From IMG/VR virus record IMGVR_UViG_3300017987_005500: 64,000 nt of DNA; one strand, 5' to 3'. This document shows positions 3,037-62,533 of this stretch, piece by piece. Under the pieces are notes generated by a model. The model made no database searches. It saw only the letters and a program-made list of their open reading frames with translations, and was not told the DNA's origin. A program made the position numbers and the translations under genes. Within the stretch, counting starts at the first letter, position 1. Every line of letters starts with the position of its first letter. The stretch comes from a virus. Lineage: Duplodnaviria > Heunggongvirae > Uroviricota > Caudoviricetes.

Positions 3037-4141
3037 GAAATTTCAGGAATTGATGGATGAGTCAATCGTTAAAGTTATTTTGGACAAAACAAGTAATATT
3101 GACTCAGTGATTGGTGAAGTCAAATCCTGGTGGAGTTATGATTTATTCAACAGGAAACCCGGACCTGCTTATCAGGAAGATGGTACATTTGTAGGGACTG
3201 ACTTGGACATGGCGTGTTTTCTCTATGAGTTAGCTGAGAGAGGAGCTGCCATAAATATTCCTGAATACAAATCTTTTCGTCAGACCAAATTCAAAGAAGG
3301 TCAGATGTTGACGAGTAAAGATAATCGTCATGGTATTTTGAAAGGACTTGTTTCAAATAAAGAAACATGGGTCTTTAGCATTAACATGATTGATCAAAAT
3401 GTTATGACCTCAGATGGAACTGGAGATTCAAGAACATTTTCTTTAACAGACTTTAAAGGGAAATGGTATGATGGATGGAAAGATCTTCAATTCATCGGCA
3501 CTGCAAAAGAAAATGGTTGGTTGATGGAGAATAAACTCCTAACTGACAATAAAATTATATTCAGAGATTTTATTCACCCTAATCGGTGGACATCATTCTT
3601 TGGAGTTAAATACTTCATTACAAAGCTTCTTATTCAACGACTGACTGAAGAAGCGAGTCATTATTATAAACAAGTAAAGAGAATGAAAGAAGAAGGAATT
3701 ACTTTTGCTCCAGGCGGCGGAGCAACATCACCAGCATCATATACAGATAAATCAGTAGACAAAGGAAAACAAATTACTGTCGACGCATTTGAAGTCGAAC
3801 TTGACGTACCGCCAAATGACACAAAGTTTCCTGAATATGAAAGTAGTCAGGAAAACTATACGGAATTATACAGAAAAAGAAATAACTTTGTATTCGGAGT
3901 TGGTCCAGCTCTAAGATTTATGACAAGGGCAACTGAGTATGCACACTTTAAAAATCCTGATCGCTTTCCGCATTGGATAAAAGGCGCGGAATGGGTACAT
4001 GAATATAAACAAAAAGGTAAAAAGAAAGTTTGGAGTCGTTTAGTACTTTGCCAGCCAGAGAATTTTAAATTAGGACTTGCTTTAAGAAAAAGAACCTGGC
4101 CAAAAAGCACAAGAGTCTCCGAAGATTATGAAGAAAAATAA
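3019..4141 (+). CDS. Hypothetical protein (~374 aa)
   Basis: Long ORF. Probable start ATG 3019 (MKAVSKK) follows GAGGAG SD. The ORF-track start at 2975 overlaps the cca gene end. Confidence 0.55.
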
Positions 4142-22896: not shown

Positions 22897-23964
22897 TTAT
22901 TTTTCAACTCTTATAATTGTTTTTCGGTCTAACTGTAATTTCATATGTTCAATTACCATTTCCAATTGATTTATATATTTTTCAATTGACCCATCAATTG
23001 TAATTACTTTTTCTAAACTTCCAAAATGCATCTCAAGACATTCCATTAATAAATTCTTTATTTTAGGTTCATCAGGAGAATGTTGTAAATCACATTTAGT
23101 ATATAATTCTTCTAATGACTTTTCTTTATCTTCAAAATATTGAGTGATTGTTTCTTTTTTCCAGTCACCTCTGCGAATGGATTTAAGTTGCTCTCTATTT
23201 CTTTCAAGATCAAGATCATGTTCAGTCATTATTTGCTCAACTTCATTTATTAGTCTTACTACATGATAAGCAAATTTAACATCATATCCATGTTTCATTA
23301 TGTCAGGTAATCGTCTTGTTAATTTTTTCTTTCCACCTTCTGTCAATTCTAAAAATAATCTCCCGACATATTTTACTTCAGCAATTGGAAATTTTTCTTT
23401 TACTTCTTCAATATTAAAAGTGACAGGGTTGATATCCAATTTATCACATTCTTCAATAAAAGGTAAAATCTTTTTTGATTGCATTTTATTAAGTTGAGAA
23501 TATGCATACCCTTTGAATCTATGCCATGCTCCCTTATGTAAAAATAACTTTCTGTTTTCTCTTATATGCTCACCAATTTGAGTCGAATGTAATATACATC
23601 TTCTTGGTACAAATAAGGAGTCAATCATATTAGGATTATTTTGCATACATAATTGAAAATACTTTGTAATGCTATGAATATTTAAATCATATTCTTTGCC
23701 TTCTTCCTTATCCATAATATGATGTATTTGAAATTGTTCAAACCTTATAGGTTGTTTTCCAAAACCATGAATATAACCTGATAGATGAGGAAATATCATA
23801 TCTTTATAAGGAATTGAAAATCCATAAATATCCATATCCGACGTATCATTGCTACATCCATATGCAACACTTCCCATTAATACTTCATAATGAACATTAC
23901 TTTTCATATGAGCAGGAGGATTGATTAACTGCTTTTTCATTAATTTATCTATGATTGATCCCAT
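22897..23964 (-). CDS. Pol-beta superfamily nucleotidyltransferase (355 aa)
   Basis: 'GSVAYGCSNDTSDMDIYGF' matches the GS-x9-13-DxD nucleotidyltransferase signature. Confidence 0.5.
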   Translation of the reverse strand: MGSIIDKLMKKQLINPPAHMKSNVHYEVLMGSVAYGCSNDTSDMDIYGFSIPYKDMIFPHLSGYIHGFGKQPIRFEQFQIHHIMDKEEGKEYDLNIHSITKYFQLCMQNNPNMIDSLFVPRRCILHSTQIGEHIRENRKLFLHKGAWHRFKGYAYSQLNKMQSKKILPFIEECDKLDINPVTFNIEEVKEKFPIAEVKYVGRLFLELTEGGKKKLTRRLPDIMKHGYDVKFAYHVVRLINEVEQIMTEHDLDLERNREQLKSIRRGDWKKETITQYFEDKEKSLEELYTKCDLQHSPDEPKIKNLLMECLEMHFGSLEKVITIDGSIEKYINQLEMVIEHMKLQLDRKTIIRVEK

Positions 23965-36987: not shown

Positions 36988-38019
36988 CTACATTGAAAAA
37001 TCGGCAGCATCAGTAAAGTTTGCTGCATTAGGATTTTTCATCCATGCTGCAGTTGTTACCATACTTACATATGGGAACCCATCTTCTTTATGTAATGCCT
37101 GTCCAATAAACTGACGATTTTTTATTGTCTCAAAAGATATATTCATTTCTTGTTGCTCAACATCTCTTTGAAACTTAGTTTTAATGAATCCTTTAAGAAC
37201 ATTTTTGACTCTTTCATCTTCCTTTGCTTCAACTTTCTTAAGTTCATCAAGGATGTCCTTAATAGAGTTTATGTTAGCTGATGCAAGAGGAACCCTCATT
37301 TTAGGAGGCGGTGTGTTCTTACCAAATTTCTTTGCAAACCATATAGCAACACTCCCATAGCTTTCTCTGATAAGAGGTTCCCATATTGATTTCCAATACT
37401 TATAATTCGGAGTTCTTTCAACACCAATAACATCTCCGTTTAAAAGGATTATAGCACCAACCATCTTTGGAACTATTTCAAATTCAGCTATAAATGTGCT
37501 AAGCTGTTTATCAAAACCTTGTAGAAATAATTCAAGATGACCTTTATTTAAAAGACCCAATTCTTGATTGAATTCTTTAATAACTGGCCACAATTCCTGA
37601 TATGAAGTACTGTTTTTTGTCATTGTTGCAAATTCTCTCATCGCCCAAGGTAAAATAGACATATGATAATCAGAGTCAGATCTTATACTTCCACCCTGAG
37701 AGTCTTGAATACAACGAGCTTGCTTTGTTGTATAACTCCCTCTGCCTTTCATAAAAATACCTTTAGGAGATGAATGATTTTGTGCAGTTTGTTTAGACAT
37801 TACAGCTCCACCGGTAGGAAATATTGTTGGAGCATTACCCAAGTTTTTCACATTTAATGTACCATAATCTCCGGTACTTGCTTCAATATTTCCAATTGGT
37901 GCTTCAAAACTATCATCGACAATGTCTGATAATAATGGGATGATTTGCATAAATCCCACTGACTGCATTCTTCCAGGTGTGCATCCTTTTAAGATGCTTG
38001 CAATTGTGATTTCTTTCAT
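36988..38019 (-). CDS. Hypothetical protein (343 aa)
   Basis: Long ORF, ATGA-coupled to upstream vWA gene. Confidence 0.5.
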   Translation of the reverse strand: MKEITIASILKGCTPGRMQSVGFMQIIPLLSDIVDDSFEAPIGNIEASTGDYGTLNVKNLGNAPTIFPTGGAVMSKQTAQNHSSPKGIFMKGRGSYTTKQARCIQDSQGGSIRSDSDYHMSILPWAMREFATMTKNSTSYQELWPVIKEFNQELGLLNKGHLELFLQGFDKQLSTFIAEFEIVPKMVGAIILLNGDVIGVERTPNYKYWKSIWEPLIRESYGSVAIWFAKKFGKNTPPPKMRVPLASANINSIKDILDELKKVEAKEDERVKNVLKGFIKTKFQRDVEQQEMNISFETIKNRQFIGQALHKEDGFPYVSMVTTAAWMKNPNAANFTDAADFSM

Positions 38020-39629
38020 TGCGTCACCTCCTTCTTTTTCTTCGGTGCTTCAAGCATAGGTAATATCATTTGTAATAATGATTTCAGTCCATTCATAGGG
38101 TCAACTTCCAACATTGGTTTGAAGAATGTTAGTCCAACCGCTTCAGGTTTTGAGATAGGCATAACAGGAATTAAATCACTAAGTTGTCTAACTCCTTCTT
38201 TTGCCTCAGCTGCACTTACAGGATTTATATGATAAATGGGAAGATTCCACCCAAGTCTTCTTACAACTTGAATGACTTCATGTGTTCTTCCTGCTGGAGC
38301 ATTTTCATACCCATCACTTATAATAAATACTGCGTCAGGTTCATTTTCCAAAACTTTAGCAAGAGACATTGCTAATGAAGAGTCACCCATTGGATAAGAA
38401 AGTCCATCCTTTGAATAACCTCCTGCAAATTCAATGTAATAATTTTCGCAAGCATGTTTAAGCATTTCTCTTGTGGCACTTGCTATTGAAATAGGACGCA
38501 TATGCTGCTCACCACTTCCTGACATTGAATAAGAACCGTCAAATACAATTCCTAATCTTCCATATCTGAAAGGTAATGATTGAGCTGCTTTTCTTGCTTT
38601 CCCATTAATTGCATTTTTAATATCTTTTGACATACCCATTTTATAGGCGTATATAAATAACTCTGCCATTGGGAATTTCTTTGGATTGAATGTAACAGCG
38701 ACTCCCTCTTTCTGTGCTTTATTTTGGACCAACTTCTTTTGCTTTGTTGTCATAGTTTTCTTGGTCAAATTAAGCATTTCAGCTTGAGTGGTTTTGGAAT
38801 GATATGTACTCCTTATCCCATCAAGAATATCAGGAGGTAAAATAGCTCCTGCTTTCAAGTCAGTTTTAGCGTCGCCATAAGCTTTAAGCATCTTTACAGT
38901 ATAATCCATTTTGATACCAAGTATAAAAGCAATACATTGGATCATATCACCGTCTGACATTTTAGGATTTTTAAATTTGAAAATATCTGCAGTAAGATAA
39001 TCCATCTCCTTTTGATCAAATGATGCAACCAATGGAGTTGATAAATCTTTCAGATTATTTTCTAATATTGCTTTCACAATATTTTTATAACGTATACCCC
39101 AACAATGAGTTAACACTTTTAAAACTTTTGGTTTATATTTTACTGACCAAAGTTCTAAAGAGCGAGACCCAAGGATATAAGTCAACATTACACGTCGTGT
39201 CCTTGAGTTATTCACTTTATTGTCCACCATTTCAACAAACGTATTAAGAACCTTGTTTGGTTGGAGTTCTTTTAATAGTTTATTGATGATGTCATTTTCG
39301 GTATTGATTGGTAAAGTACTTTTTGTATTTCCTCTCCATGGATTTGATAACAATGCTTTAAATGCAGCTTGTCTTGCAAATTCAATTGCTCCTGGAAGGC
39401 AAAAAATACTTGCGTAAATACCCCTGTCTATGGCAAATACGTTTCGATGGAGAGTTTTCCTTGCTAACTCCATCTCTTCTTTTGTCTGGTAATGTGTATC
39501 TTTGCTTGTGTCAACTGCTACAAGGTTAAGCAAAGATAATGTAGCGTCAGCTAATTCTTCAATCTTCTTAGTCGGTAAGTGATCGAACGTAATGTGCTCT
39601 GGTAGTCCAGACTTTTGTACTAATTCCAT
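38016..39629 (-). CDS. von Willebrand factor A (vWA) domain protein (537 aa)
   Basis: 'GIVFDGSYSMSGSGEQ' MIDAS-like DxSxS motif; later 'IISDGYENAP'. Confidence 0.45.
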   Translation of the reverse strand: MELVQKSGLPEHITFDHLPTKKIEELADATLSLLNLVAVDTSKDTHYQTKEEMELARKTLHRNVFAIDRGIYASIFCLPGAIEFARQAAFKALLSNPWRGNTKSTLPINTENDIINKLLKELQPNKVLNTFVEMVDNKVNNSRTRRVMLTYILGSRSLELWSVKYKPKVLKVLTHCWGIRYKNIVKAILENNLKDLSTPLVASFDQKEMDYLTADIFKFKNPKMSDGDMIQCIAFILGIKMDYTVKMLKAYGDAKTDLKAGAILPPDILDGIRSTYHSKTTQAEMLNLTKKTMTTKQKKLVQNKAQKEGVAVTFNPKKFPMAELFIYAYKMGMSKDIKNAINGKARKAAQSLPFRYGRLGIVFDGSYSMSGSGEQHMRPISIASATREMLKHACENYYIEFAGGYSKDGLSYPMGDSSLAMSLAKVLENEPDAVFIISDGYENAPAGRTHEVIQVVRRLGWNLPIYHINPVSAAEAKEGVRQLSDLIPVMPISKPEAVGLTFFKPMLEVDPMNGLKSLLQMILPMLEAPKKKKEVTQ

Positions 39630-39669: not shown

Positions 39670-39806
39670 TGGCGGCGGGTGAAGGACTCGAACCTTCAGA
39701 TTCAATCTTATTAGGACTGTGTCTTTACCATTATTCTAAAGTAACTTTAAAAGTCCCTTAAAGGGTAAGGTAAAAATTACAAGAAAGTCGATTTGACTAA
39801 CCCGCC
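39670..39806 (-). ncRNA. tRNA-like gene with ~60-nt insertion between acceptor 5' strand and D/anticodon region (anticodon loop reads AAT)
   Basis: 3' part has T arm 'gaagg-ttcgagt-ccttc', acceptor 'acccgcc'+g+CCA, and anticodon stem-loop 'cagtc-ctaataa-gattg'. The complementary acceptor strand 'ggcgggt' plus 'ta gtca' lies 137 nt upstream. The insert contains palindrome 'ccctttaaggg' and motif 'ttaccttaccc'. Confidence 0.4.
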
Positions 39807-39817
39807 ATTTATATCAT

Positions 39818-40468
39818 TTATCCAAGTAGTCCAGTTGATTCTTTCTTCAACTTGATTTCCTGAATAAGATCAAGACCTTCGATGAGTTTCATCATCACAT
39901 GGTCTTTTCTCTTTGTGTTATTGGAAATTGCTTCAAGCTCTTCCAGGGTCTTCCCACTCAAGAACTTTTGTGCCTTTTCCTTGAAACCTTCTCCGGTAAG
40001 TTCTTCAACGTCGCCGCCTCTTACAAGATAAGCTTTTCCGTCTTCTTTTTCAATTCTTGCATCACCCAATACGCCGGAGTTAATGATACTTTCAACAGCA
40101 ACTTTAAGAGCAATACCCTTGATGTCTTCTTTCAATGTAACTTCTTCAATTTTAAATCCTACTAATTTTGCAATCATTTCTTCTTCCTCCTTGTCTGTAA
40201 TTTCAGTCTTCTCTGATGTAATTCCTATTGGATTTCTCATTGTGACTAATTCATGGTCAAATCGTTTTGTATGGGAAATAAAAAGATCTTTCGGTGTATC
40301 ATCATCTAATCTTACATGGATGAAAAATTTCTCATGTTCTCCATACTCAACATAGCTTAGCATCGTCTTGATACCAAACAATTCAAAAATAATATTAACG
40401 TCAGTTGCGTCTGTCTTAAATTCAATTAGTTTTTCTCGAGAAATCTCGTAAACAACTGCTCTTCTCAT
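39818..40468 (-). CDS. Hypothetical protein (216 aa)
   Basis: ORF between two tRNA-like elements. Confidence 0.5.
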   Translation of the reverse strand: MRRAVVYEISREKLIEFKTDATDVNIIFELFGIKTMLSYVEYGEHEKFFIHVRLDDDTPKDLFISHTKRFDHELVTMRNPIGITSEKTEITDKEEEEMIAKLVGFKIEEVTLKEDIKGIALKVAVESIINSGVLGDARIEKEDGKAYLVRGGDVEELTGEGFKEKAQKFLSGKTLEELEAISNNTKRKDHVMMKLIEGLDLIQEIKLKKESTGLLG

Positions 40469-40494
40469 TTCTCATTCTCCTAAAAATATAAAAA

Positions 40495-40621
40495 TGGTCG
40501 GGGGGGCAGGAATCGAACCTGCAATCTCATTTCCCACAAAAATGCGTTTATCCTAAATTAACTTTTTGTAGTCCCTAAAAGGGTAGATTAAAAAATCAAT
40601 ATTTTTTTTAAACTTCCCCCC
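40495..40621 (-). ncRNA. tRNA-His-like gene (anticodon GTG) with ~50-nt insertion in the D-loop
   Basis: 3' part: anticodon arm 'cattt-ttgtggg-aaatg', T arm 'gcagg-ttcgatt-cctgc', acceptor 'ccccccg'+a+CCA. 5' strand 'cgggggg aa gttt' is 127 nt upstream, and the D stem gttt/aaac closes around the insert. Insert carries palindrome 'cccttttaggg'. Confidence 0.45.
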
Positions 40622-40645
40622 GATAAATTGTGTTTTAAAAAATTA

Positions 40646-40723
40646 GGCAGAATAATAAGGACCCTGAAAACCTCTCCAGCCACGGTAAGGTGTGAAGATT
40701 CCTTATCAATTCTGCCCATTATG
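40646..40723. other. Long imperfect hairpin (16-17-bp stem, ~37-nt loop) in tRNA cluster
   Basis: 'ggcagaataataagga' ... 'tccttatcaattctgcc'; loop contains 'ccacggtaaggtgtgaag' (GGTAAGGT motif). Confidence 0.4.
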
Positions 40724-40820
40724 CCGAGACCCCTCTCAGACATAAAAGTATTATGAATTATAATTATGAGGACAGACCAAGCGATTTAGGTCATAAAATA
40801 ATAATAATTCATAAAGAGTT

Positions 40821-40941
40821 GGAGAGTATCAGGTTCGAACCGATATATCATATCCGAAGATAAATGTTTTGCCCGACAATTTTCTACCCGCATGCCAACG
40901 CCGGAAGGTAAATCGAAAATTGTACTTTAAACTAACTCTCC
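40821..40941 (-). ncRNA. tRNA-like element with perfect acceptor and T arm but no canonical anticodon arm
   Basis: Acceptor ggagagt/actctcc (7/7), T arm 'atcgg-ttcgaac-ctgat'. 5' 'ggagagt ta gttt' is followed by a ~46-nt insert containing 'tttaccttcc'. The would-be anticodon region is a UUCG tetraloop hairpin 'tatc-ttcg-gata'. Confidence 0.3.
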
Positions 40942-40987
40942 ATAAAAAGGTGACGGGGTAAGGTAAATAGCACTGTGTTGTTTATCG

Positions 40988-41060
40988 TCAGATTTACGGT
41001 CTGATGCCTCAACCATTGGGCTATACACGCAAAGGAGCGTACAACGGGACTTGAACCCGC
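40988..41060 (-). ncRNA. tRNA-Tyr-like (GTA) 5' half preceded by a T-arm/acceptor-3' module: possible permuted or split tRNA
   Basis: Plus coords 40988-41030 encode (minus) acceptor 'gcgtgta', D arm, anticodon arm 'tcaga-ccgtaaa-tctga' (GTA). No T arm follows. Immediately 5' of it (plus 41034-41060) lies T arm 'gcggg-ttcaagt-cccgt' + 'tgtacgc', which can pair with 'gcgtgta' (5 WC + 2 G.U). Confidence 0.3.
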
Positions 41061-41145
41061 AAGATTTCTAAAGTACCATAAAAAGTCCCCGTATAAATTC
41101 TTAAAACTTTTACTAAACTAAGGTAGGGTAAAAAGCATATCGTAA

Positions 41146-41225
41146 AATTAATGTCCGGACTTGAACCGGAAACATCTTGCTTAGTAGGCAAGTACTCTAA
41201 CCAATTGAGCTACTTTATTTTCTAA
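41146..41225 (-). ncRNA. tRNA-like gene, anticodon loop reads ACT, weakly paired acceptor
   Basis: Good D arm 'gctc-aattggtta-gagt', anticodon arm 'cttgc-ctactaa-gcaag', T arm 'tccgg-ttcaagt-ccgga'. Acceptor strands 'aataaag'/'cattaat' pair at only 5/7. Confidence 0.35.
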
Positions 41226-41360
41226 AATGCCTCTTTGAGTCCTTAGCTTAGTAAAAGCTTTAAAAGTAAAATTTTAACAGGGTAAGGTGAACAGCACTGT
41301 AATACAAATGTTGATTCCAAAAATCAATGCCTTTACCAATTTGGCCATATCCCCGGTTTG

Positions 41361-41430
41361 TGGTGGAGAAAATAGGATTCGAACCTATAAATATTCTAAA
41401 GTACCATTATAAGTCCCTGTTAAAAATTTT
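41361..41430 (-). ncRNA. T-arm/acceptor-3'/CCA module preceded by conserved 'GGGAC(T)TTT..TACTTTAGAA' block; no complementary 5' acceptor found
   Basis: 'atagg-ttcgaat-cctat tttctcc a cca'. Upstream (minus) 'cagggacttataatggtactttagaatatttat' resembles blocks next to other tRNA-like elements. Confidence 0.25.
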
Positions 41431-41489
41431 AATTCATTAAAAATAAGTTTTGACATATTTTAAATTGAGGTAGGGTAAAAAAGTAGCTT

Positions 41490-41565
41490 TGGAGTATATT
41501 GAAGGAGTTGAACCTTCGACATCAAAATTACAAGTTTTGTGCTCTACCAACTGAGCTAAGTATAC
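41490..41565 (-). tRNA. tRNA-Thr (anticodon TGT), second copy
   Basis: Acceptor gtatact/aatatac (one mismatch), D arm 'gctc-agttggta-gagc', anticodon arm 'caaaa-cttgtaa-ttttg', T arm 'gaagg-ttcaact-ccttc', CCA encoded. Confidence 0.6.
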
Positions 41566-41796
41566 GAAAATACCTTTTAAAAGTCCTCAATTTAAAATAT
41601 GTCAAAACAAAATTATTTATATTCTTTTTTATGCCCATCATCACTTTTAAGCTATGTTACAGAAACTCGTATATCACATAGACCCGAAATCTAATGATAT
41701 ATCTTGAACTGCCTACAGGACTTAAATGTCAATAAAATTCTTTCGGGTTTTCACTGAGCACGCAATGATGAACACAAAGAAAAATATAAATACAAA

Positions 41797-41872
41797 AAGT
41801 ATGAGGGACTCGAACCCCCAACCTAACATTGATTTATTCAAAGTTTGCTCTACCAATTGAAGCTAATACTTT
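41797..41872 (-). ncRNA. tRNA-like gene / possible pseudogene (no canonical 7-nt anticodon loop)
   Basis: Acceptor aaagtat/atacttt perfect, D arm 'gctt-caattggta-gagc', T arm 'ggggg-ttcgagt-ccctc'. Anticodon region folds only as 'ttga-ataaa-tcaa' (5-nt loop). Confidence 0.3.
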
Positions 41873-41922
41873 CTATTAGTAAATAATATATATAGCAAAC
41901 TCTATTTATCCAAAATTTTTGA

Positions 41923-42308: not shown

Positions 42309-42384
42309 TGGTGGAGATGGTGAGAGTCGAACTCACGACTTCGACCTTGCAAGGGTCGCACTCATCCCACTGAGTTACATCCCC
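42309..42384 (-). tRNA. tRNA-Ala (anticodon TGC)
   Basis: Acceptor ggggatg/catctcc, D arm 'actc-agtgggat-gagt', anticodon arm 'cgacc-cttgcaa-ggtcg', T arm 'gtgag-ttcgact-ctcac', CCA encoded. Confidence 0.65.
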
Positions 42385-42916
42385 ACTTACTTAAAATATA
42401 TTTTTCTATAAAAGGAACTATTTCCTTTTTAAATCTTGAATGGTACATTTTATGATGATTTGGACAGAGGTAAATTAAATTTTCTTTTCTGTTATCAGTA
42501 TTATCTTCATTAACATGATGAACATCTAAAATCTTATTGAAATTGCATATTATACAACTATATGAATTATGTCTTTTGCATACAGTTTTATAATGAAGTT
42601 CACCCTTGTTTTCCATTGACTCTACATTTACTTTAGCAGAAAAGGATCTCGCACATTTATCAGAGCAATAATATCTATCTTTAGTAGGGAATTTATATTT
42701 TTTTTCAACAACTATAAAATCTTTTTTACAATTATTACAAATTACTGTAAATTCTTTATCTTCCCCACATTGAATAATAGATCGTTTTTGTTGTGCAAGT
42801 TTCATATTATCTGTACTGCGTTTGTTTGGATTTTCATTACACCATCTTGAATGATTACCTTTTTCAGATAATGTTTTAAAATCAAACTCTTTATCGCAAT
42901 ACTTACATGTCCACAT
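42362..42916 (-). CDS. HNH endonuclease (184 aa)
   Basis: 'DVHHVNEDNTDNRKENLIYLCPNHHKMYH' HNH box; N-terminal CxxC pairs; 3' end overlaps tRNA-Ala by ~20 nt. Confidence 0.6.
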   Translation of the reverse strand: MWTCKYCDKEFDFKTLSEKGNHSRWCNENPNKRSTDNMKLAQQKRSIIQCGEDKEFTVICNNCKKDFIVVEKKYKFPTKDRYYCSDKCARSFSAKVNVESMENKGELHYKTVCKRHNSYSCIICNFNKILDVHHVNEDNTDNRKENLIYLCPNHHKMYHSRFKKEIVPFIEKYILSKWGCNSVG

Positions 42917-44412: not shown

Positions 44413-44504
44413 TGGTGGAGATAGAGGGATTCGAACCCTCGACACCCCAAGTGCAGTGCCGGCATTACCTGCTTTGGGCGCTCTTACCGCTAAAGCTATA
44501 TCCC
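44413..44504 (-). ncRNA. tRNA-like gene (92 nt) with extended/ambiguous anticodon region
   Basis: T arm 'gaggg-ttcgaat-ccctc', acceptor 'tatctcc'+a+CCA, D arm 'gctt-tagcggtaa-gagc', 5' acceptor 'tgggata' (6/7). Between D and T arms, a 'cccaa...ttggg' pairing encloses ~27 nt instead of a 7-nt loop. Confidence 0.35.
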
Positions 44505-44508
44505 ATTT

Positions 44509-46854: not shown

Positions 46855-47613
46855 TCACTTTAACAAATATTTCCACCAATGTGTTTCACCTGCCATGTTT
46901 AAGCAAGTCCATTTAGTGCCTTCATCGAAACCTTCCTTAAATAAATGCCAATGAGCAAAATACCATAAAGAAGGTCGATATTTTTTTAATAATACTGATA
47001 AAGCTTTCCTACTTGGGTCATTATACTTTTCACTATCTCCCTCAACTTTAAATTCAGTTGGACAAGTATGTGAAATTATTATGTCAACCTTAACATCAGG
47101 TAAATTATAAATGTCTCTTTGAGAAATTAATTCTTCAGGAAACCAGTCATATCCTGGAGTTCTCAAATTTTTGTCAATTGAGTCGCCCCCTCCCATAAAG
47201 AGAACAACTCTTTTGTCAGGTAAAGTTAACGTAGATCCCCTTTTCATATAGAAAACATTAGGGCAGATCTCGTTATCTTTTACCTCATTGAGCTTTGAAA
47301 ATTCTTCATGATTTCCATCGCACCAATATATCTTCGTATTTGGATTTTTCATTCCGCATACTTTATATTTGTTCTTCTTTCTATAGTAACCATGATCTTC
47401 ATATGGCACTTCTTCCATACTTGGCCAATAACCAAAGTCACCGCATTGAAGAATAATATCAGGGTTCTTAGTATTAATTAATGTATTTAAATATCTCCAA
47501 TTCCCATGAGTATCACCACATACTATAATCTTCATTTTTTCATTGAGTTTATAAATGCTAAAATTGCTGAAACTCCTCCAGCGCAAGCGCCTGCTCCAAA
47601 AGTTATAATACAT
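46855..47613 (-). CDS. Calcineurin-like metallophosphoesterase
   Basis: 'MKIIVCGDTHGNW' (GDxHG motif), 'LQCGDFGYW' (GDxxY), 'CDGNHE' (GNH[E/D]). Confidence 0.65.
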   Translation of the reverse strand: MYYNFWSRRLRWRSFSNFSIYKLNEKMKIIVCGDTHGNWRYLNTLINTKNPDIILQCGDFGYWPSMEEVPYEDHGYYRKKNKYKVCGMKNPNTKIYWCDGNHEEFSKLNEVKDNEICPNVFYMKRGSTLTLPDKRVVLFMGGGDSIDKNLRTPGYDWFPEELISQRDIYNLPDVKVDIIISHTCPTEFKVEGDSEKYNDPSRKALSVLLKKYRPSLWYFAHWHLFKEGFDEGTKWTCLNMAGETHWWKYLLK

Positions 47614-51622: not shown

Positions 51623-52069
51623 TTAAAATGGGTCAATTGGCATGCAAACAATATCATCTATACAACCTGTCACTTTTAATTTATATTCAGTTTGTCTTTT
51701 ATACATCTTTGAAATAATTAAAGCATAACCTGCAGCTTCAAGAAAATTATTAAAAAGTCCAAACCAAAATGTTTTTCCAGTTCTTAAATCTCTTAATTCA
51801 CTTTGATAATGATCAGCATATCTTGTTGATACATTATGCTGTATATCAATCTTTCCACCTTCTGGATGGAGTTTAATGAAACTTCTTTCATAATTGATGT
51901 TGATAAACCATCTTTTGTATAAACCGCTTTTTGCAAATGTATTATTTAAAATAAATTGCTGTGCATCATCAACTGCTTTTCGTACTTCTTTCTCATGTAG
52001 CATAATTGTCTCCAAACTTCGTAATTCGTCATGGTACCCCAGGCAGGATTCGAACCTGCGCGCAAACAT
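51623..52069 (-). CDS. Hypothetical protein (148 aa)
   Basis: ORF; function not recognisable. Confidence 0.45.
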   Translation of the reverse strand: MFARRFESCLGYHDELRSLETIMLHEKEVRKAVDDAQQFILNNTFAKSGLYKRWFININYERSFIKLHPEGGKIDIQHNVSTRYADHYQSELRDLRTGKTFWFGLFNNFLEAAGYALIISKMYKRQTEYKLKVTGCIDDIVCMPIDPF

Positions 52070-52107
52070 TTAGAGTGTCCTGCTCTAAACCACTGAGCTA
52101 CTGGGGC
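52032..52107 (-). tRNA. Suppressor tRNA (anticodon CTA, reads UAG amber)
   Basis: Acceptor gccccag/ctggggt, D arm 'gctc-agtggttta-gagc', anticodon arm 'ggaca-ctctaaa-tgttt' (two G.U pairs), T arm 'gcagg-ttcgaat-cctgc', CCA encoded. Confidence 0.5.
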
Positions 52108-56669: not shown

Positions 56670-56957
56670 TTATTGAGCAATGTCATTTATCGGTGTGCCT
56701 CCAATGAAACTATCATAGTATTGAAAATAAGGTACATATGTATTTTTGTAATAAAATTCAACTTCACCAAATTCAATTTTTTTACAAGCTGAATCAAATC
56801 TCATTGGACCAAATTCACCTCTTATATGAAGAGTTTGAATAATCTCATCAGCAACATCTCCATTGTCTACTAAAAGATTACCATTGTCCCATTGAAATTT
56901 TCCTTTAAATTGTTTATGAGTATTCAAAATAGATGTTACATAACTTTCTAATCCCAT
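56670..56957 (-). CDS. Hypothetical protein (95 aa)
   Basis: ORF overlapping-start coupled to kinase gene. Confidence 0.4.
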   Translation of the reverse strand: MGLESYVTSILNTHKQFKGKFQWDNGNLLVDNGDVADEIIQTLHIRGEFGPMRFDSACKKIEFGEVEFYYKNTYVPYFQYYDSFIGGTPINDIAQ

Positions 56958-57475
56958 CTCTTTAACTCTCCTTCTTTATCAACTTCTAATATTTTATCTG
57001 CTCCAAGTTCATGTATTCTATAAGTCAAGTCTTGCATTTGATTTGCAAACCTATACATTTTTTCAGTTCCAACATTTTTAGTTTGTCGTTTTTCGCATGT
57101 CTCCATGTCAATATTCATCAATACAATTGTTGTGTCATAATTGTATTCTTTAGCATAGTCTATCCAACGCTTTGTAATGTAATAAGATACATTCGTTGAA
57201 TCAAGAGCAATATTTTGTCCTCTTATCATAATTGCTCTTCCAACCAACTCATACATTCCTTGTAAAAGTTTATCAATATTAGGATTGAATGTAGATCCTG
57301 CTGCTAATCTAAAATCATCAAGACATAAAATTGTATGAGTATCTTTTTTATATTTATCAATGTATGTCGATTTTCCTGCTCCAGGAATTCCTACTGGAAT
57401 AAATAATTCGGGATTCATATGTACGGTCCTATTATTTTTAGAAATCCATATATCCAAGGGATGAAAATGAAACAA
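56948..57475 (-). CDS. P-loop polynucleotide-kinase-like protein (Pnk kinase-domain homolog)
   Basis: 'IPVGIPGAGKSTYIDKY' Walker A resembling the T4 Pnk N-terminal kinase domain (GxPGSGKST); 175 aa, so the kinase domain only. Confidence 0.5.
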   Translation of the reverse strand: MFHFHPLDIWISKNNRTVHMNPELFIPVGIPGAGKSTYIDKYKKDTHTILCLDDFRLAAGSTFNPNIDKLLQGMYELVGRAIMIRGQNIALDSTNVSYYITKRWIDYAKEYNYDTTIVLMNIDMETCEKRQTKNVGTEKMYRFANQMQDLTYRIHELGADKILEVDKEGELKRWD

Positions 57476-59261: not shown

Positions 59262-59765
59262 TCACTCTCCTTCGTTTAATTTTTTAATTGCTTCATTCGC
59301 GATTTCTTCAGTTAATCCATTTGTCATATAATCAGTTTGAATTAAATGATCCATTAAGTCTTCCATATCATCATCGTCATCTAAAATAATAAATTTACAG
59401 TCTTCTCCAAATTCATCTAACCATTCTTTAATTTCAGTTCCTCGATATGTTTCTCTTGATACGTCATATAATAAGTCTGGAGTCTCTCCAATAAATTCGC
59501 CTTTTATATTAGCAGTTAATAAAAAATCATAGTGATTCTTATGTCTTCTCCAAGTGCTAGATAATACAATCTTAGCACCTGTTTCCTTGATGATTCTATT
59601 TAATTGTTTGACACATTCAATAGATATCTTAAGGACTCCTTCCCCACCCTTTACTATTTCAGCAGGATGAGGATTTTTCCCATTGTCATTCCAACAATCA
59701 ACGTGATTAAGAACTCCATCAACATCAAGGAAAATTATCTTTTCCATTATAACTCCTCTTACCAA
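59262..59765 (-). CDS. HAD-family phosphatase (polynucleotide 3'-phosphatase-like)
   Basis: 'KIIFLDVDGVLNH' HAD motif I (DxDGxL), 'VLSSTWR' motif II-like, 'ILDDDDD' motif IV-like; resembles the phosphatase domain of T4 Pnk. Confidence 0.55.
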   Translation of the reverse strand: MVRGVIMEKIIFLDVDGVLNHVDCWNDNGKNPHPAEIVKGGEGVLKISIECVKQLNRIIKETGAKIVLSSTWRRHKNHYDFLLTANIKGEFIGETPDLLYDVSRETYRGTEIKEWLDEFGEDCKFIILDDDDDMEDLMDHLIQTDYMTNGLTEEIANEAIKKLNEGE

Positions 59766-59981: not shown

Positions 59982-59995
59982 AATAAATCCTTATG

Positions 59996-60071
59996 GGGTG
60001 AGCGACGAGACTTGAACTCGCAACCACCGGGACCACAACCCAGCGCTCTACCATTGAGCTACACCCACCAT
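59996..60071 (-). tRNA. tRNA-His (anticodon GTG) with G-1
   Basis: Extra 5' G pairing with discriminator C (His hallmark). Acceptor gtgggtg/cgctcac, D arm 'gctc-aatggta-gagc', anticodon arm 'ctggg-ttgtggt-cccgg', T arm 'gcgag-ttcaagt-ctcgt', CCA encoded. Confidence 0.65.
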
Positions 60072-61051: not shown

Positions 61052-61885
61052 TTAATTTTTAGCTTGAAGTCTCTCATATTCTTCCTTCGCAAATTCACTG
61101 GCGTATGCAATTAATAACATAACATCGCACTCATAAAATCCTGAAGCATTGAAACAATTAACTTCAATAACTTTTAAACCATCCGCTGTTTGACATATAT
61201 CAAGAGTATAAGCTTTCTCAACTTGCCAATCAGCTCTTGCAATTGATAAGGCAAATTCAATAACATTTCCTGGCATATCAAAAGCTTCCGCTGATTGATA
61301 TAACCTATTGTGTTTCTTATACATTGAACCTGTCACAACTTCTTTATCAATTACAACAAATCTCCATTCTGCCCAAATATCTTTAACAGAACTTATTGTA
61401 ACTTCTGATTTAATGGTTATGTTTTTAAATTGACTAGTTGAATCATTAATGACGTCATACCATTTTTCAAATTCATACTTATCAAAAACATCACCTGAGA
61501 ATAGTTTAAAATCAGAGTTTGGTCTTATAAATAATGGAGGTCCGTCAAAATGATCTAATACTTCATATATTTTCATAACCTTAGAGTCATGATTTAACCA
61601 TTTTTCCCCATATTGTTTTCCCCATACGCTTGGTTTAAATGTCTCCTCATTAAACCACATACCTGGAAAATATTTACCGCTTTTAACTATGTTCTTTAAT
61701 AATGTCGTAGTTCCATATGCTAAAACAGGACCGTCATGGTCAGTAATTCCCTCTGGTAAACAATCTGCAAAGGGAATTATTTTAACTAAGTCATATGGAA
61801 GCTCTTGTCTTTCAAAGCAATTGATCATTTTATCAACTGCTTTTTCTTTAAAAATATTTGTCTGTAATATCCATTTGGTTTTCAT
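61052..61885 (-). CDS. Hypothetical enzyme, possible ATP-grasp-like fold (277 aa)
   Basis: C-terminal 'YTLDICQTADGLKVIEVNCFNASGF' resembles the ATP-grasp 'D..g..vlEvN' segment; weak. Confidence 0.3.
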   Translation of the reverse strand: MKTKWILQTNIFKEKAVDKMINCFERQELPYDLVKIIPFADCLPEGITDHDGPVLAYGTTTLLKNIVKSGKYFPGMWFNEETFKPSVWGKQYGEKWLNHDSKVMKIYEVLDHFDGPPLFIRPNSDFKLFSGDVFDKYEFEKWYDVINDSTSQFKNITIKSEVTISSVKDIWAEWRFVVIDKEVVTGSMYKKHNRLYQSAEAFDMPGNVIEFALSIARADWQVEKAYTLDICQTADGLKVIEVNCFNASGFYECDVMLLIAYASEFAKEEYERLQAKN

Positions 61886-62459: not shown

Positions 62460-62533
62460 TGGTAGCCCTGCTCGGACTTGAACCGAGAACATCTTGCTTG
62501 TAAGGACAGTGCTCTTCGCGCTGAGCTATAGCT
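62460..62533 (-). ncRNA. tRNA-like element (degenerate), embedded in-frame between HNH and pilin-like coding sequences
   Basis: T arm 'ctcgg-ttcaagt-ccgag' + 'cagggct a CCA', D arm 'gctc-agcgcgaa-gagc'. Anticodon stem is mismatched ('ctgtc-cttacaa-gcaag'). No complementary 5' acceptor. Confidence 0.3.

What the first reader, a model, noticed from the sequence alone, without database searches (positions are those of the whole stretch)
39670..40941. tRNA genes whose 5' acceptor strand lies 45-60 nt upstream of the rest of the cloverleaf (D-loop insertions / interrupted tRNAs)
Three minus-strand elements (39670-39806, 40495-40621, 40821-40941) end in a canonical T arm, a 3' acceptor strand and, in the first two, an encoded CCA. 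Their perfectly complementary 5' acceptor strands ('ggcgggt', 'cgggggg', 'ggagagt') lie 120-137 nt upstream, each followed by 'ta/aa gt(c/t)..'. 7/7 complementarity three times is not chance. In the His-like gene a D stem (gttt/aaac) can close around the insert, so the ~50-nt extra block would sit in the D-loop. That is not a position known for bacterial or phage tRNA introns, which are group I introns in the anticodon loop. The inserts share palindromes ('ccctttaaggg', 'cccttttaggg') and the 'ttaccttaccc' motif. The third element lacks a usable anticodon loop and instead has a UUCG tetraloop. The alternatives are short introns, unusually expanded D-loops, or tRNA-like structural RNAs.
Basis: seen in the sequence. 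Interest (0 to 1): 0.8.

Follow-up and report, generated by a model that had tools for sequence, protein, structure and literature searches.

The report
tRNA-like RNAs with Ro60 handle
Three tRNA-shaped genes in a giant-phage genome really are interrupted in the D-loop; the interrupting block is a conserved two-helix RNA module that also flanks whole and circularly permuted tRNAs just upstream of a Ro60-like gene, so they are most likely a new kind of tRNA-mimicking Y RNA, not intron-containing tRNAs.

Summary
All three minus-strand elements pair a 5' acceptor strand 7/7 with a 3' strand 120-137 nt away, and 18 relatives keep that stem through compensatory changes.

The insert of E1 and E2 is not a loose D-loop. 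It is a conserved module: helix P2, an internal loop with invariant UACC and GGACU, and helix P1. Both helices covary.

The same module flanks two whole tRNAs and two circularly permuted tRNAs in the same 2-kb cluster. In relatives it also flanks non-tRNA bodies.

Of 78 validated modules, 77 lie within 3 kb upstream, on the same strand, of a 537-aa gene. The predicted fold of that protein matches Ro60 over its full length.

Cultured Planctomycetes carry the same Ro60-like/ARPP-1 gene pair. Upstream sit one tRNA-like and one non-tRNA module RNA, like YrlA and YrlB.

Best reading (about 0.55): these are Y-like RNAs, and the module is the handle for the Ro60-like protein. They lack the canonical GNCGAA motif and match no Rfam family except tRNA.

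A splicing or permuted-tRNA maturation pathway is not excluded (about 0.15). E3 carries a divergent insert, has no anticodon loop and no CCA.

The parts
39670..39806 (-). E1: interrupted tRNA-shaped RNA. 5' acceptor 39800-39806, D-stem 5' strand GUC 39795-39797, A/C-rich spacer, module 39736-39780, then D-loop 3' part, anticodon arm (loop CUAAUAA), T arm, 3' acceptor + GCCA 39670-39680.
   Evidence: Covariance model of the module hits 39730-39791 (58 bits, E 3e-9).
39736..39780 (-). Module copy in E1: P2b GUAAUUUU, loop strand UACCUUA, P1 CCC-UUUAA-GGG, loop strand ACUUUU, P2a AAAGUUAC, tail UUUAG.
40495..40622 (-). E2: interrupted tRNA-shaped RNA with anticodon loop UUGUGGG (GUG). 5' acceptor CGGGGGG 40616-40622, D stem GUUU/AAAC across the insert, module 40553-40599, 3' acceptor + ACCA 40495-40505. 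It has C1-G72 and A73 and no G-1, so it lacks the bacterial His acceptor identity.
   Evidence: Model hit 40547-40609 (63.8 bits, E 2e-10).
40818..40941 (-). E3: tRNA-like RNA. Its D-loop insert (40876-40923) is a 9-bp stem ACAAUUUUC/GAAAAUUGU around a UUUACCUUCC...GGGUA core, a divergent relative of the module that lacks UACC and GGACU. A UUCG tetraloop hairpin replaces the anticodon arm. No CCA.
   Evidence: (Rfam tRNA 33.4 bits with 56-nt insertion). No ortholog was seen in L019 or L022.
40953..41092 (-). Unit B: circularly permuted tRNA flanked by the module. Order: module 5' strand 41068-41092, T arm + 3' acceptor 41036-41060, 6-nt linker, 5' acceptor + D arm + anticodon arm (GUA) 40988-41030, spacer, module 3' strand 40953-40974.
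   Evidence: (re-permuted: tRNA-Tyr GUA; native order: no call). Acceptor pairs 4:69 and 7:66 are compensatory relative to L019.
41119..41245 (-). Unit X: module-flanked tRNA-like body (41145-41220) with anticodon loop CUACUAA (ACU), a weak acceptor stem and no CCA. Orthologs carry GCU or GUU.
41278..41419 (-). Unit A: circularly permuted tRNA (UUG) flanked by the module. T arm + 3' acceptor + CCA 41361-41388, linker CAAACC, 5' half 41311-41354. Helix P1 is CAGGG/CCCUG.
   Evidence: (re-permuted: tRNA-Gln UUG).
41465..41590 (-). Module-flanked complete tRNA-Thr(UGU) (41490-41565). P1 is at least 14 bp.
38016..39629 (-). Gene for a 537-aa Ro60-like protein: N-terminal alpha-helical repeat ring plus a C-terminal vWA domain with a DxSxS metal-binding (MIDAS) motif. 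It lies immediately downstream of E1.
   Evidence: AlphaFold2 model pLDDT 88. The top seven Foldseek PDB hits are all Ro60, aligned full length, E 1e-6 to 8e-5, TM 0.44-0.57. No Pfam, NCBIfam, PHROG or PDB sequence hit.
36988..38019 (-). ARPP-1 domain protein, the conserved partner gene of the Ro60-like gene.
   Evidence: Pfam PF20208, E 7e-20. The pair is kept in 62 of 66 cellular loci and in the phage loci.
39818..40468 (-). 216-aa protein of unknown function, lying between E2 and E1. Conserved only in the close phage clade.
   Evidence: The AlphaFold2 model is unreliable (pLDDT 59).

Best explanation
E1, E2 and (in degenerate form) E3 belong to a family of Ro60-associated, Y-RNA-like non-coding RNAs.

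Each RNA has two parts:
1. A conserved 'handle': distal helix P1, an asymmetric internal loop with invariant 5'-UA|CC and GG|ACU-3', helix P2 with a conserved G-U pair, and a 5-nt tail UNNAG.
2. A variable body, usually a tRNA or tRNA mimic. The body joins the P2 side through a 13-15-nt A/C-rich spacer.

In E1 and E2 the handle is a hairpin that emerges from the variable alpha region of the D-loop. The L-shape determinants U8, A14, R15, G18G19 and A21, the acceptor stem and the encoded CCA are all retained.

In neighbouring units the same handle closes the ends of whole tRNAs or of circularly permuted tRNAs. The latter is the YrlA topology: T arm, closed acceptor stem, D arm.

Shown here: the handle structure and its covariation; its restriction to the 3 kb upstream of the Ro60-like gene on the same strand; the Ro60 fold of that protein; the same arrangement in bacterial chromosomes.

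Inferred, not shown: the Ro60-like ring protein binds the handle and is thereby tethered to a tRNA-shaped domain. By analogy with the bacterial Ro60/YrlA/RNA-repair systems, and given the phage's own RNA-repair genes, the resulting complex would act in tRNA surveillance or repair, or would counter host tRNA-targeting nucleases.
For: 1. Handle structure. It is 88.6% paired against 35-52% for slid controls, with covariation 0.437 against 0.178 for shuffles (0 of 500 reach it). In a partner-swap test, 84% of true P2 partners score at least 4.5 against 27% of swapped partners. P1 reaches 14 bp and its sequence differs in nearly every unit.

2. Strand bias. On the tRNA strand 98 GGACU...UACC pairs have P1 of at least 6 bp; on the other strand 5 do. 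Conserved G-U pairs also indicate an RNA-level structure.

3. Position. The motifs occur nowhere else in the 64-kb window. 77 of 78 validated modules lie within 3 kb upstream of the Ro60-like start, although 62% of the searched bases lie downstream. GC-rich canonical tRNAs elsewhere in the window lack the module.

4. The neighbouring protein has the Ro60 fold.

5. Bodies are modular. Of 61 non-redundant flanked units, 23 hold a whole tRNA, at least 6 a permuted tRNA, and 14 a body with no tRNA feature. Y RNAs are modular in the same way.

6. Cultured Pirellulaceae (Stieleria, Novipirellula, Rhodopirellula, Roseiconus) carry one tRNA-like unit (4-bp acceptor, no CCA) and one short non-tRNA unit 0.3-0.5 kb upstream of the same Ro60-like/ARPP-1 pair. 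This parallels YrlA and YrlB (PMC4201824).

7. Some family members cannot decode: E3 and L027's E1 ortholog have no anticodon arm. Anticodons change freely between orthologs while the body is kept, and E2 lacks the His acceptor identity.

8. In L025, L026 and L042 a full mimic of the handle encloses the ribosome-binding site and start codon of the Ro60-like gene (P1 of 7-8 bp, P2 GUAAU/AUUAC, loop strand AAACCUA), with a compensatory change between L025 and L026. This looks like an autoregulatory operator.

9. Precedent. YrlA is encoded within 4 kb of Ro60 on the same strand, mimics tRNA, and in M. smegmatis is cut by RNase P and receives CCA (PMC4201824). Jumbo phages carry ROT/TROVE proteins with a tRNA-like partner (PMC7824862).
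Against: - No binding data exist. The link to Ro60 rests on gene adjacency, and most loci were retrieved through the Ro60-like protein. The within-locus position test is not affected by that retrieval.
- The canonical Ro60-binding motif GNCGAAN0-1G / GGUCCGA is absent.
- Sequence methods do not recognise the protein as TROVE.
- Many bodies look like working tRNAs: encoded NCCA, canonical 7-nt anticodon loops, compensatory anticodon-stem changes, and a class II Tyr with a long variable arm (L030). This is what one would expect if the handle were removed to release a tRNA.
- The handle attaches at different tRNA positions (acceptor end, D-loop, variable region, anticodon stem 29/30). That is easier to reconcile with a removable element or a flexible tether than with a rigid complex.
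- The binding protein could instead be ARPP-1 or the 216-aa protein.
- Only 7 of 39 distant Ro60-like loci (30-40% identity) show the strict motif, and the uncultured phage LR756500 has none.
Confidence: 0.55

Rival explanations
1. The module is an intron-like processing element. An endonuclease cuts at the base of P2 on both strands, and the phage's RNA-repair enzymes (kinase, phosphatase, a ligase elsewhere in the genome) join the tRNA pieces.

Cis copies (E1, E2) would then be spliced into ordinary 76-nt tRNAs. Permuted units would be circularised and reopened by RNase P and 3' trimming, as in Cyanidioschyzon merolae. The result would be mature decoding tRNAs.
For: - In-silico excision or re-permutation gives canonical cloverleaves.
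- NCCA is encoded, including inside the linkers of permuted units.
- One permuted unit is broken inside the anticodon stem (29/30; L026:8781, L042:2762), and a perfect 5-bp stem is restored only by joining.
- Breakpoints are diverse, as in C. merolae.
- L030 carries a class II Tyr body.
- The window encodes an AAA_33 kinase, a HAD_SAK_2 phosphatase, RlaP, a Metallophos protein and a CCA-adding enzyme.
Against: - No bulge-helix-bulge geometry and no pairing between the two junctions.
- The required 3' junction sits at inconsistent distances from P2: about 7 nt in the window's E1, 0-2 nt in L024 and L025.
- No endonuclease or ligase was identified in the window.
- Splicing gives no role to the handle around complete tRNAs or non-tRNA bodies, nor to the Planctomycete tRNA-like units with a 4-bp acceptor and no CCA.
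- E3 and L027 lack anticodon arms.
- The known analogue YrlA is a stable, unspliced RNA (PMC4201824).
Confidence: 0.15
2. The module is a leader/trailer processing or stabilising structure that does not depend on Ro60. It could be a double-strand nuclease site, or a clamp bound by another protein (ARPP-1, the 216-aa protein, or a host factor), that governs maturation or half-life of a polycistronic cluster of small RNAs. On this view its position next to the Ro60-like gene reflects co-transcription only.
For: - Long leader-trailer helices enclosing each unit resemble rRNA and tRNA processing stems.
- Units are tandem and on one strand, with no promoter excess in the cluster.
- In D. radiodurans, Y RNAs are made from a polycistronic precursor together with a tRNA (PMC4201824).
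Against: - Invariant loop nucleotides and a conserved G-U pair, kept from phages to Planctomycetes, imply specific recognition.
- The cis hairpin inside D-loops is not explained by leader/trailer processing.
- The tight positional coupling to the Ro60-like gene holds across phyla.
- A mimic of the handle lies over the gene's own ribosome-binding site.
Confidence: 0.15
3. The repeats are a DNA-level feature: terminal inverted repeats of a small mobile cassette, or recombination sites, that have inserted into and shuffled tRNA genes. The interrupted and permuted genes would then be inactive debris.
For: - L022 carries a duplicated E2 5' piece with an extra unit inserted.
- Unit content differs between close relatives: E1 is absent in L020 and E3 is unique to this phage.
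- Homing-endonuclease-type genes are nearby (HNH at 42362-42916).
Against: - Compensatory changes maintain the acceptor, D, anticodon and T stems across the insert, so the genes are under selection as folded RNAs.
- Strand bias is extreme (98 against 5).
- G-U pairs are conserved.
- Orthologous units keep their synteny from 93% down to 46% identity of the neighbouring protein.
Confidence: 0.04

Closest known systems
YrlA-type bacterial and phage Y RNAs bound by Ro60/Rsr (Chen et al. 2014, PMC4201824; phiLo Yrl1/2, PMC12135203)
   Same: Encoded close to, and on the same strand as, a Ro60-fold gene. Modular: a stem with an internal loop plus an effector domain that mimics tRNA. Units A and B have exactly the YrlA order (T arm, closed acceptor stem, D arm), with the RNA ends in the stem. 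A second, non-tRNA partner RNA exists, like YrlB. [quoted passage not shown]
   Different: No GNCGAA/CGAA motif; the stem instead carries invariant UACC and GGACU. The protein is too divergent for TROVE sequence models. Bodies include complete tRNAs with an anticodon arm and an encoded CCA. In E1 and E2 the stem is a hairpin inserted in the D-loop of a tRNA in normal order. There are up to about 10 copies per genome. No Rfam match other than tRNA.
Circularly permuted tRNA genes of Cyanidioschyzon merolae and some archaea
   Same: The 3' half lies upstream of the 5' half with a short linker. Complementary sequences at the two ends of the precursor pair with each other. Breakpoints are diverse, and the same end-motif also occurs in cis within other tRNA genes.
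   Different: Those use a bulge-helix-bulge motif cut by the splicing endonuclease and pass through circular intermediates. Here there is no such geometry, no such enzyme is known in bacteria or phages, and the flanking element is a sequence-conserved two-helix module that also surrounds non-tRNA bodies.
Archaeal non-canonical tRNA introns and split tRNAs (Nanoarchaeum)
   Same: tRNA genes interrupted at positions other than 37/38, including the D-loop. The pieces are held together by complementary flanks.
   Different: The context here is a bacteriophage and bacterial chromosomes. The insert has conserved sequence rather than only a bulge-helix-bulge shape. There is no evidence of excision.
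Bacterial and phage group I introns in tRNA anticodon loops
   Same: They interrupt a tRNA gene in a bacterial or phage genome.
   Different: Wrong position (D-loop alpha region, not the anticodon loop), wrong size (45-60 nt against more than 200 nt), and no group I match in Rfam.
Two-piece tmRNA from permuted ssrA genes
   Same: A permuted tRNA-like gene whose acceptor is opened by processing, giving a functional tRNA-like domain from a rearranged gene.
   Different: No mRNA-like module and no tmRNA match above threshold. There are many different bodies.

Membership tests
Y RNA / YrlA (Ro60-associated ncRNA) | Encoded within a few kb of a Ro60 ortholog, on the same strand | tested here: met
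   E1 ends 41 nt upstream of the Ro60-like ORF. 77 of 78 modules lie within 3 kb upstream on the same strand. Ro60 fold by AlphaFold2 plus Foldseek.
Y RNA / YrlA (Ro60-associated ncRNA) | Partner protein recognisable as TROVE/Ro60 by sequence | tested here: not met
   No Pfam, NCBIfam or PHROG hit and no PDB sequence hit, even with a 33-sequence profile. Only the predicted fold matches.
Y RNA / YrlA (Ro60-associated ncRNA) | Conserved Ro60-binding motif GNCGAAN0-1G (GGUCCGA in animals) in the 5' strand of the stem | tested here: not met
   The module's invariant bases are UACC, GGACU and a tail AG. No Rfam Y RNA or YrlA match at E up to 10.
Y RNA / YrlA (Ro60-associated ncRNA) | Stem, internal loop, stem formed by the RNA's 5' and 3' ends | tested here: inconclusive
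   Met for the flanked units Thr, A, X and B. In E1 and E2 the same stem is an internal hairpin, so the topology differs. The true RNA ends are unknown.
Y RNA / YrlA (Ro60-associated ncRNA) | tRNA-like domain (T arm, D arm, acceptor-like stem) | tested here: met
Y RNA / YrlA (Ro60-associated ncRNA) | Physically bound and stabilised by Ro60 | not testable with these tools
   Needs immunoprecipitation or gel-shift assays.
Canonical tRNA (Rfam RF00005 / ARAGORN) | Contiguous cloverleaf scoring above the gathering threshold | tested here: not met
   ARAGORN gives no call. E1 scores 23.3 and E2 28.3 bits, both partial and below the threshold of 29. E3 scores 33.4 bits only by accepting a 56-nt insertion and a short anticodon loop.
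Canonical tRNA (Rfam RF00005 / ARAGORN) | Identity elements that match the anticodon | tested here: inconclusive
   E2 (GUG) lacks G-1:C73, whereas the canonical His at 59994-60068 has it. Unit X orthologs switch between GUU, GCU and ACU without a class II variable arm. But L030's Tyr body does have a long variable arm.
tRNA intron, bulge-helix-bulge type (archaea, eukaryotes, C. merolae) | Two 3-nt bulges separated by a 4-bp helix at the exon-intron junctions | tested here: not met
   By inspection, the junction flanks are a 13-15-nt unpaired spacer and a 5-nt tail. They do not pair with each other.
tRNA intron, group I (bacteria and phages) | Self-splicing intron of more than 200 nt in the anticodon loop | tested here: not met
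   The insert is 45-60 nt and sits in the D-loop. No group I match.
Circularly permuted tRNA gene | 3' half, linker, 5' half in one transcription unit, giving a cloverleaf when re-permuted | tested here: met
   Applies to units A and B, not to E1-E3. ARAGORN calls Gln(UUG) and Tyr(GUA) only after re-permutation. The minimum-energy fold agrees.
Circularly permuted tRNA gene | Maturation through a circular intermediate into a continuous tRNA | not testable with these tools
   Needs RNA sequencing or RT-PCR across the junction.
Small self-cleaving ribozymes | Match to a known catalytic core (hammerhead, twister, pistol, hatchet, hairpin, HDV-like) | tested here: not met
   No Rfam match at E up to 5-10.

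The most novel reading that the evidence does not exclude
The handle is the recognition element of a protein-dependent RNA cut-and-join pathway in bacteriophages and bacteria, possibly organised on the Ro60-like/ARPP-1 pair and completed by the phage's kinase, phosphatase and ligase repair enzymes. That pathway would splice D-loop-interrupted tRNAs and mature circularly permuted tRNA genes. This would be the first non-group-I tRNA splicing, and the first permuted tRNA genes, outside archaea and eukaryotes.
Probability: 0.12. Interest if true: 0.95.

Novelty: new variant of a known kind. Interest (0 to 1): 0.68.

Why it matters
If the reading is right, it defines a second, sequence-distinct class of Ro60/Y-RNA particle, invisible to both Pfam TROVE and Rfam models. 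This class is shared by jumbo phages and by cultured Planctomycetes; the protein pair alone is also found in Myxococcota and Actinobacteria.

Its RNA partners run from clear mimics to apparently complete tRNAs, and the handle is attached at the acceptor end, the D-loop, the variable region or the anticodon stem. That natural series of attachment points could be used to ask what the tRNA-like domain of Y RNAs is for, which has been open since 2014.

It links Ro60 to the phage-host conflict over tRNAs: RNA-repair genes, hypervariable anticodons, and ARPP, a domain otherwise found in conflict systems.

It also flags tRNA-shaped genes that standard tRNA finders miss. Because the cellular version occurs in cultured strains, all of this can be tested directly.

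Tried and rejected
- **Promoter/terminator reading** (module 5' strand as a phage-polymerase promoter, 3' strand as a terminator). Rejected. P1 and P2 pair the sequence upstream of each body with the sequence downstream of it, with covariation, so both lie in one transcript. The module also occurs in Planctomycete chromosomes. There is no sigma-70 promoter excess.
- **Pairing of adjacent module strands across the spacers.** Rejected. Complementarity exists only between the strands that flank the same body (one search read by eye).
- **Exact-pattern scan of IMG/VR for the GGACU-side motif.** It gave 16 single hits, all inside coding sequence, so chance matches. The protein-based scan of IMG/VR found nothing.
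- **GenBank phages.** Only uncultured LR756500 carries the Ro60-like gene, and it has no module upstream.
- **Sequence-level identification of the 537-aa protein** (Pfam, NCBIfam, PHROGs, PDB with single sequence and with profile). All negative.
- **RNAalifold on the MAFFT alignment.** It recovered only P1. P2 had to be specified by hand and then passed the slid and shuffled controls.
- **Structure prediction of the 216-aa protein.** Too shallow an alignment (5 sequences), pLDDT 59; not used.
- **RNA ligase or endonuclease among window ORFs of at least 150 aa.** None recognised.
- **In-silico excision as a map of splice sites.** ARAGORN tolerates many boundaries, so it shows only that a cloverleaf is recoverable.
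- **Bulge-helix-bulge motif, group I introns and known ribozymes.** No support.
Full report
**1. The observation**

- E1 (39670-39806) is GGCGGGU-UA-GUC ... AGAC, then an anticodon arm with loop CUAAUAA, a canonical T arm, and ACCCGCC-G-CCA.
- E2 is CGGGGGG-AA-GUUU ... AAAC, an anticodon arm with loop UUGUGGG (GUG), a T arm, and CCCCCCG-A-CCA. Its first base is at 40622, not 40621.
- E3 (40818-40941) is GGAGAGU-UA-GUUU ... AAAC. A UAUC-UUCG-GAUA hairpin replaces the anticodon arm. It ends in a T arm, ACUCUCC-A, and no CCA.

ARAGORN finds 16 ordinary tRNAs in the window but none of these three. The Rfam tRNA model matches E3 end to end only by opening a 56-nt insertion in the D-loop (33.4 bits; gathering score 29). 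It matches only the 3' two-thirds of E2 (28.3 bits) and E1 (23.3 bits). The result that would have refuted the finding, canonical tRNAs with other boundaries, did not occur.

**2. The distant acceptor strand is real**

The neighbouring 537-aa protein served as a handle to fetch relatives.
- I recovered 19 interrupted tRNAs of the same design. Each has 7/7 acceptor complementarity across 111-148 nt, and nearly all have an encoded NCCA.
- In an 18-sequence alignment the acceptor stem across the insert is 97.5% paired, and six of seven pairs change on both sides.
- With the T stem and helix P2 included, the structure is 96.3% paired against 46-56% when partners are slid by 1-3 columns. No shuffle out of 500 reaches the observed covariation.
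- The D stem across the insert also covaries: GUC/GAC, AUC/GAU, GUUU/AAAC, GCUU/AAGC (read).
- Deleting the insert in silico gives ARAGORN calls of tRNA-Ile(AAU) for E1 and tRNA-His(GUG) for E2.

**3. What the insert is**

The 'ttaccttaccc' motif and the 'ccc-tttaa-ggg' palindrome are parts of one structured module. In RNA order for the cis form it reads:
- P2b (for example GUAAUUUU);
- a loop strand ending in invariant UA;
- P1b, starting with invariant CC;
- a short loop;
- P1a, ending in invariant GG;
- a loop strand starting with invariant ACU;
- P2a (AAAGUUAC);
- a 5-nt tail, UNNAG.

A MAFFT alignment of 20 cis copies shows UACC, GGACU and the tail AG as invariant. The two-helix structure is 88.6% paired against 35-52% for slid controls. 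Its covariation score is 0.437 against 0.178 for shuffles, and 0 of 500 shuffles reach it. P2 contains a conserved G-U pair. A covariance model built from these copies finds exactly E1 and E2 in the 64-kb window (E 3e-9 and 2e-10). The next hit is noise at E 0.23.

**4. The same module organises the whole cluster**

Within the window the two motif halves occur only between 39.7 and 41.6 kb, on the minus strand. Besides the cis copies in E1 and E2, the GGACU half precedes four bodies and the UACC half follows them. The two halves that flank the same body are complementary:
- AGG/CCU around tRNA-Thr;
- CAGGG/CCCUG around unit A;
- UAAGG/CCUUA around unit X;
- ACGGGG/CCCCGU around unit B.

Adjacent halves across the spacers are not complementary.

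Units A (41278-41419) and B (40953-41092) are circularly permuted tRNAs. Their order is T arm, 3' acceptor strand (with CCA in A), a 6-nt linker, 5' acceptor strand, D arm and anticodon arm. ARAGORN calls nothing in the native order, but calls tRNA-Gln(UUG) and tRNA-Tyr(GUA) once the halves are re-joined. The minimum-energy folds reproduce P1, P2, the closed acceptor stem and the three arms. Between the window and L019, acceptor pairs 4:69 and 7:66 of unit B change in a compensatory way.

**5. Breadth**

Across the fetched loci, GGACU...UACC pairs with P1 of at least 6 bp occur 98 times on the tRNA strand and 5 times on the other strand.

P2 was not used to select units. It is complementary in 84% of true partners against 27% of swapped partners.

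There are 61 non-redundant flanked units in 22 loci. Of these, 23 enclose a whole tRNA, at least 6 (more by eye) enclose a permuted tRNA, and 14 enclose bodies with no tRNA feature. Permuted units break in the variable region, at 29/30 in the anticodon stem, near 26/27, or in the D-loop. CCA often sits in the linker.

A 13-15-nt A/C-rich spacer precedes P2b and a 5-nt tail follows P2a. In the D-loop form, A14/A15 lie in the 5' piece and G18G19...A21 follow the tail (directly in most orthologs, after a few extra nucleotides in the window clade). The insertion therefore sits in the structurally permissive alpha region of the D-loop.

**6. Context**

The window comes from a T4-like jumbo phage, with gp23, gp20 and a prohead protease. 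One of its proteins occurs on a 308-kb contig.

It has a set of RNA-repair genes: a CCA-adding enzyme, RlaP, an AAA_33 kinase, a HAD_SAK_2 phosphatase and a Metallophos protein.

The gene immediately downstream of E1 (38016-39629) has no sequence-level annotation. Its AlphaFold2 model (pLDDT 88) matches Ro60 over the full length. The top seven PDB hits are all Ro60: Xenopus and human Ro60 and the Ro60 of Thermus phage phiLo, with E 1e-6 to 8e-5. It is followed by an ARPP-1 protein.

Of 78 validated modules, 77 lie within 3 kb upstream of this gene's start on the same strand, although 62% of the searched bases lie downstream. GC-rich canonical tRNAs elsewhere in the window, including a second Thr(UGU) and a His(GUG) with proper G-1:C73, have no module.

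**7. Cellular counterparts**

The same Ro60-like/ARPP-1 pair is found in 62 of 66 bacterial loci, from Planctomycetes, Myxococcota and Actinobacteria.

In Pirellulaceae, including complete chromosomes of cultured Stieleria and Novipirellula, two module units lie 0.3-0.5 kb upstream. One encloses a tRNA-like body with a 4-bp acceptor, no CCA and an anticodon loop that differs between species. The other encloses a short non-tRNA body.

In this clade a further 3-bp helix inside the 'loop' covaries (GCG/CGC, GCA/UGC, UCU/AGA) next to a conserved C-C mismatch.

**8. Interpretation**

Chen et al. 2014 (PMC4201824) showed the following about YrlA Y RNAs:
- They are encoded within 4 kb of Ro60 on the same strand in more than 250 bacteria and phages.
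- They pair their ends into a Ro60-binding stem.
- They carry a tRNA-like domain in the order T arm, acceptor stem-loop, D arm.
- They come with a second, non-tRNA Y RNA.
- In M. smegmatis the RNA is cut by RNase P and receives CCA.

Units A and B have exactly this topology, and the Planctomycete pair looks like YrlA plus YrlB. I therefore read the module as the protein-binding handle of a divergent Ro60/Y-RNA system. E1 and E2 are members in which the handle is a hairpin grafted into the D-loop of a tRNA in normal order.

Further support:
- Some members cannot decode (E3; L027's E1 ortholog has no anticodon arm).
- Anticodons drift freely between orthologs. E1 orthologs carry AAU, GAA, CGG, AAC or UAG; E2 orthologs GUG or UUG; unit X orthologs ACU, GCU or GUU.
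- E2 lacks the His acceptor identity.
- In L025, L026 and L042 a complete mimic of the handle encloses the ribosome-binding site and start codon of the Ro60-like gene, with one compensatory change in P1. This looks like an autoregulatory operator.

Binding itself, and the downstream function, are inferred and not shown. The proposed function is tRNA surveillance or repair, or countering host tRNA-targeting nucleases.

**9. What does not fit, and the main rival**

The canonical GNCGAA motif is absent, and the protein is Ro60-like only by fold. Many bodies look like working tRNAs: encoded CCA, canonical loops, a class II Tyr in L030, and a permuted unit whose anticodon stem is perfect only if the pieces are joined.

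A cut-and-join pathway that uses the phage's repair enzymes therefore remains possible, at about 0.15. Against it:
- there is no bulge-helix-bulge geometry;
- the junction distances are inconsistent;
- no endonuclease or ligase was found;
- it gives no role to the handle around complete tRNAs, non-tRNA bodies or the CCA-less cellular mimics.

A promoter/terminator reading and a DNA-cassette reading are contradicted by the long-range covariation, the G-U pairs, the strand bias and the selection on the tRNA stems.

**10. E3**

E3 shares E2's D arm (GUUU/AAAC) and insertion site. Its insert is a different hairpin: a 9-bp stem around UUUACCUUCC...GGGUA, which lacks both invariant blocks. It has no anticodon loop and no CCA, and I saw no ortholog in L019 or L022. 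It is best viewed as a divergent or decaying member.

**11. Verdict**

The finding is real and more extensive than reported. It is most likely a new variant of a known kind, Ro60-associated tRNA-mimicking Y RNAs, with an undescribed handle and unprecedented topologies. There is a minority chance that it is a new RNA splicing and permutation system.

Noticed in passing
window 40953-41092 and 41278-41419 (minus strand): Two circularly permuted tRNA genes (Tyr-like GUA with C33; Gln-like UUG): T arm + 3' acceptor, short linker, 5' acceptor + D + anticodon arms. No tRNA finder detects them in native order.
   Followed up: yes
window 38016-39629 and 36988-38019 (minus strand): An unannotatable 537-aa protein has a Ro60 (TROVE-like ring + vWA) fold. 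It forms a conserved gene pair with an ARPP-1 protein, also in Planctomycetes, Myxococcota and Actinobacteria. This Ro60 subfamily escapes the Pfam TROVE model.
   Followed up: yes
L026:9959-10030, L042:3919-3991, L025:9965-10140; window about 39488-39608: A GGACU...UACC pairing with P1 of 6-8 bp lies at the 5' end of the Ro60-like mRNA. In L026 and L042 it is a complete mimic of the handle that encloses the Shine-Dalgarno sequence and the AUG. In the L024/L033 clade P1 contains the AUG. In the window clade it lies in codons 8-48 and has no P2. Possible autoregulatory operator.
   Followed up: partly
window 41145-41220; L019:2703-2778; L020:8695-8769; L022:6465-6540; also L019:2207-2285 and L019:2523-2598, L024:3063-3138, L077, L070: Module-linked tRNA bodies change anticodon between orthologs (GUU, GCU, ACU). 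They often carry A34 (AAU, ACU, AUA, AUG, AUU, AUC, AAA) or an odd position 33 (C33, G33), mostly in the His/Asn/Asp/Tyr box. This might relate to evasion or baiting of anticodon nucleases.
   Followed up: partly
window 44416-44505 (minus strand): A tRNA-like gene abuts tRNA-Lys. It has a 23-nt loop closed by a CCCAA/UUGGG stem in place of a 7-nt anticodon loop, and a bulged acceptor stem. Rfam tRNA 38.2 bits; ARAGORN misses it.
   Followed up: no
window about 41800-41880 (minus strand); L019:2207-2285: An AT-rich degenerate tRNA-like element with a 7/7 acceptor (AAAGUAU/AUACUUU), good D and T arms and a malformed anticodon arm. It has no module.
   Followed up: no
window 40646-40717 (minus strand); L019 about 3105-3180: A conserved 72-nt hairpin (GGGCAGAAU...AUUCUGCC) between E3 and E2. 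It contains an ACCUUACCG stretch that resembles the module's loop strand. Function unknown.
   Followed up: no
L022:6958-7130: A duplicated 5' piece of the E2 ortholog, followed by an extra module unit with a non-tRNA body (P1 UUAGGG/CCCUAA) inserted before the intact E2 ortholog. This is evidence of local duplication and turnover of units.
   Followed up: partly
window 1675-3036(+), 22897-23964(-), 46855-47613(-), 56948-57475(-), 59262-59765(-), 61052-61885(-): An RNA-repair toolkit: CCA-adding enzyme, RlaP nucleotidyltransferase, Metallophos protein, AAA_33 kinase, HAD_SAK_2 phosphatase and an R2K ATP-grasp protein. No RNA ligase was recognised in the window.
   Followed up: partly
window 52032-52107 (minus strand): A well-formed tRNA with anticodon CUA (an amber suppressor; ARAGORN labels it 'Pyl'). 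This suggests possible TAG reassignment or suppression late in infection. L026 has one too.
   Followed up: no
window 62463-62533 (minus strand): A tRNA-like sequence just under the Rfam threshold (28.9 bits against 29). ARAGORN does not call it.
   Followed up: no
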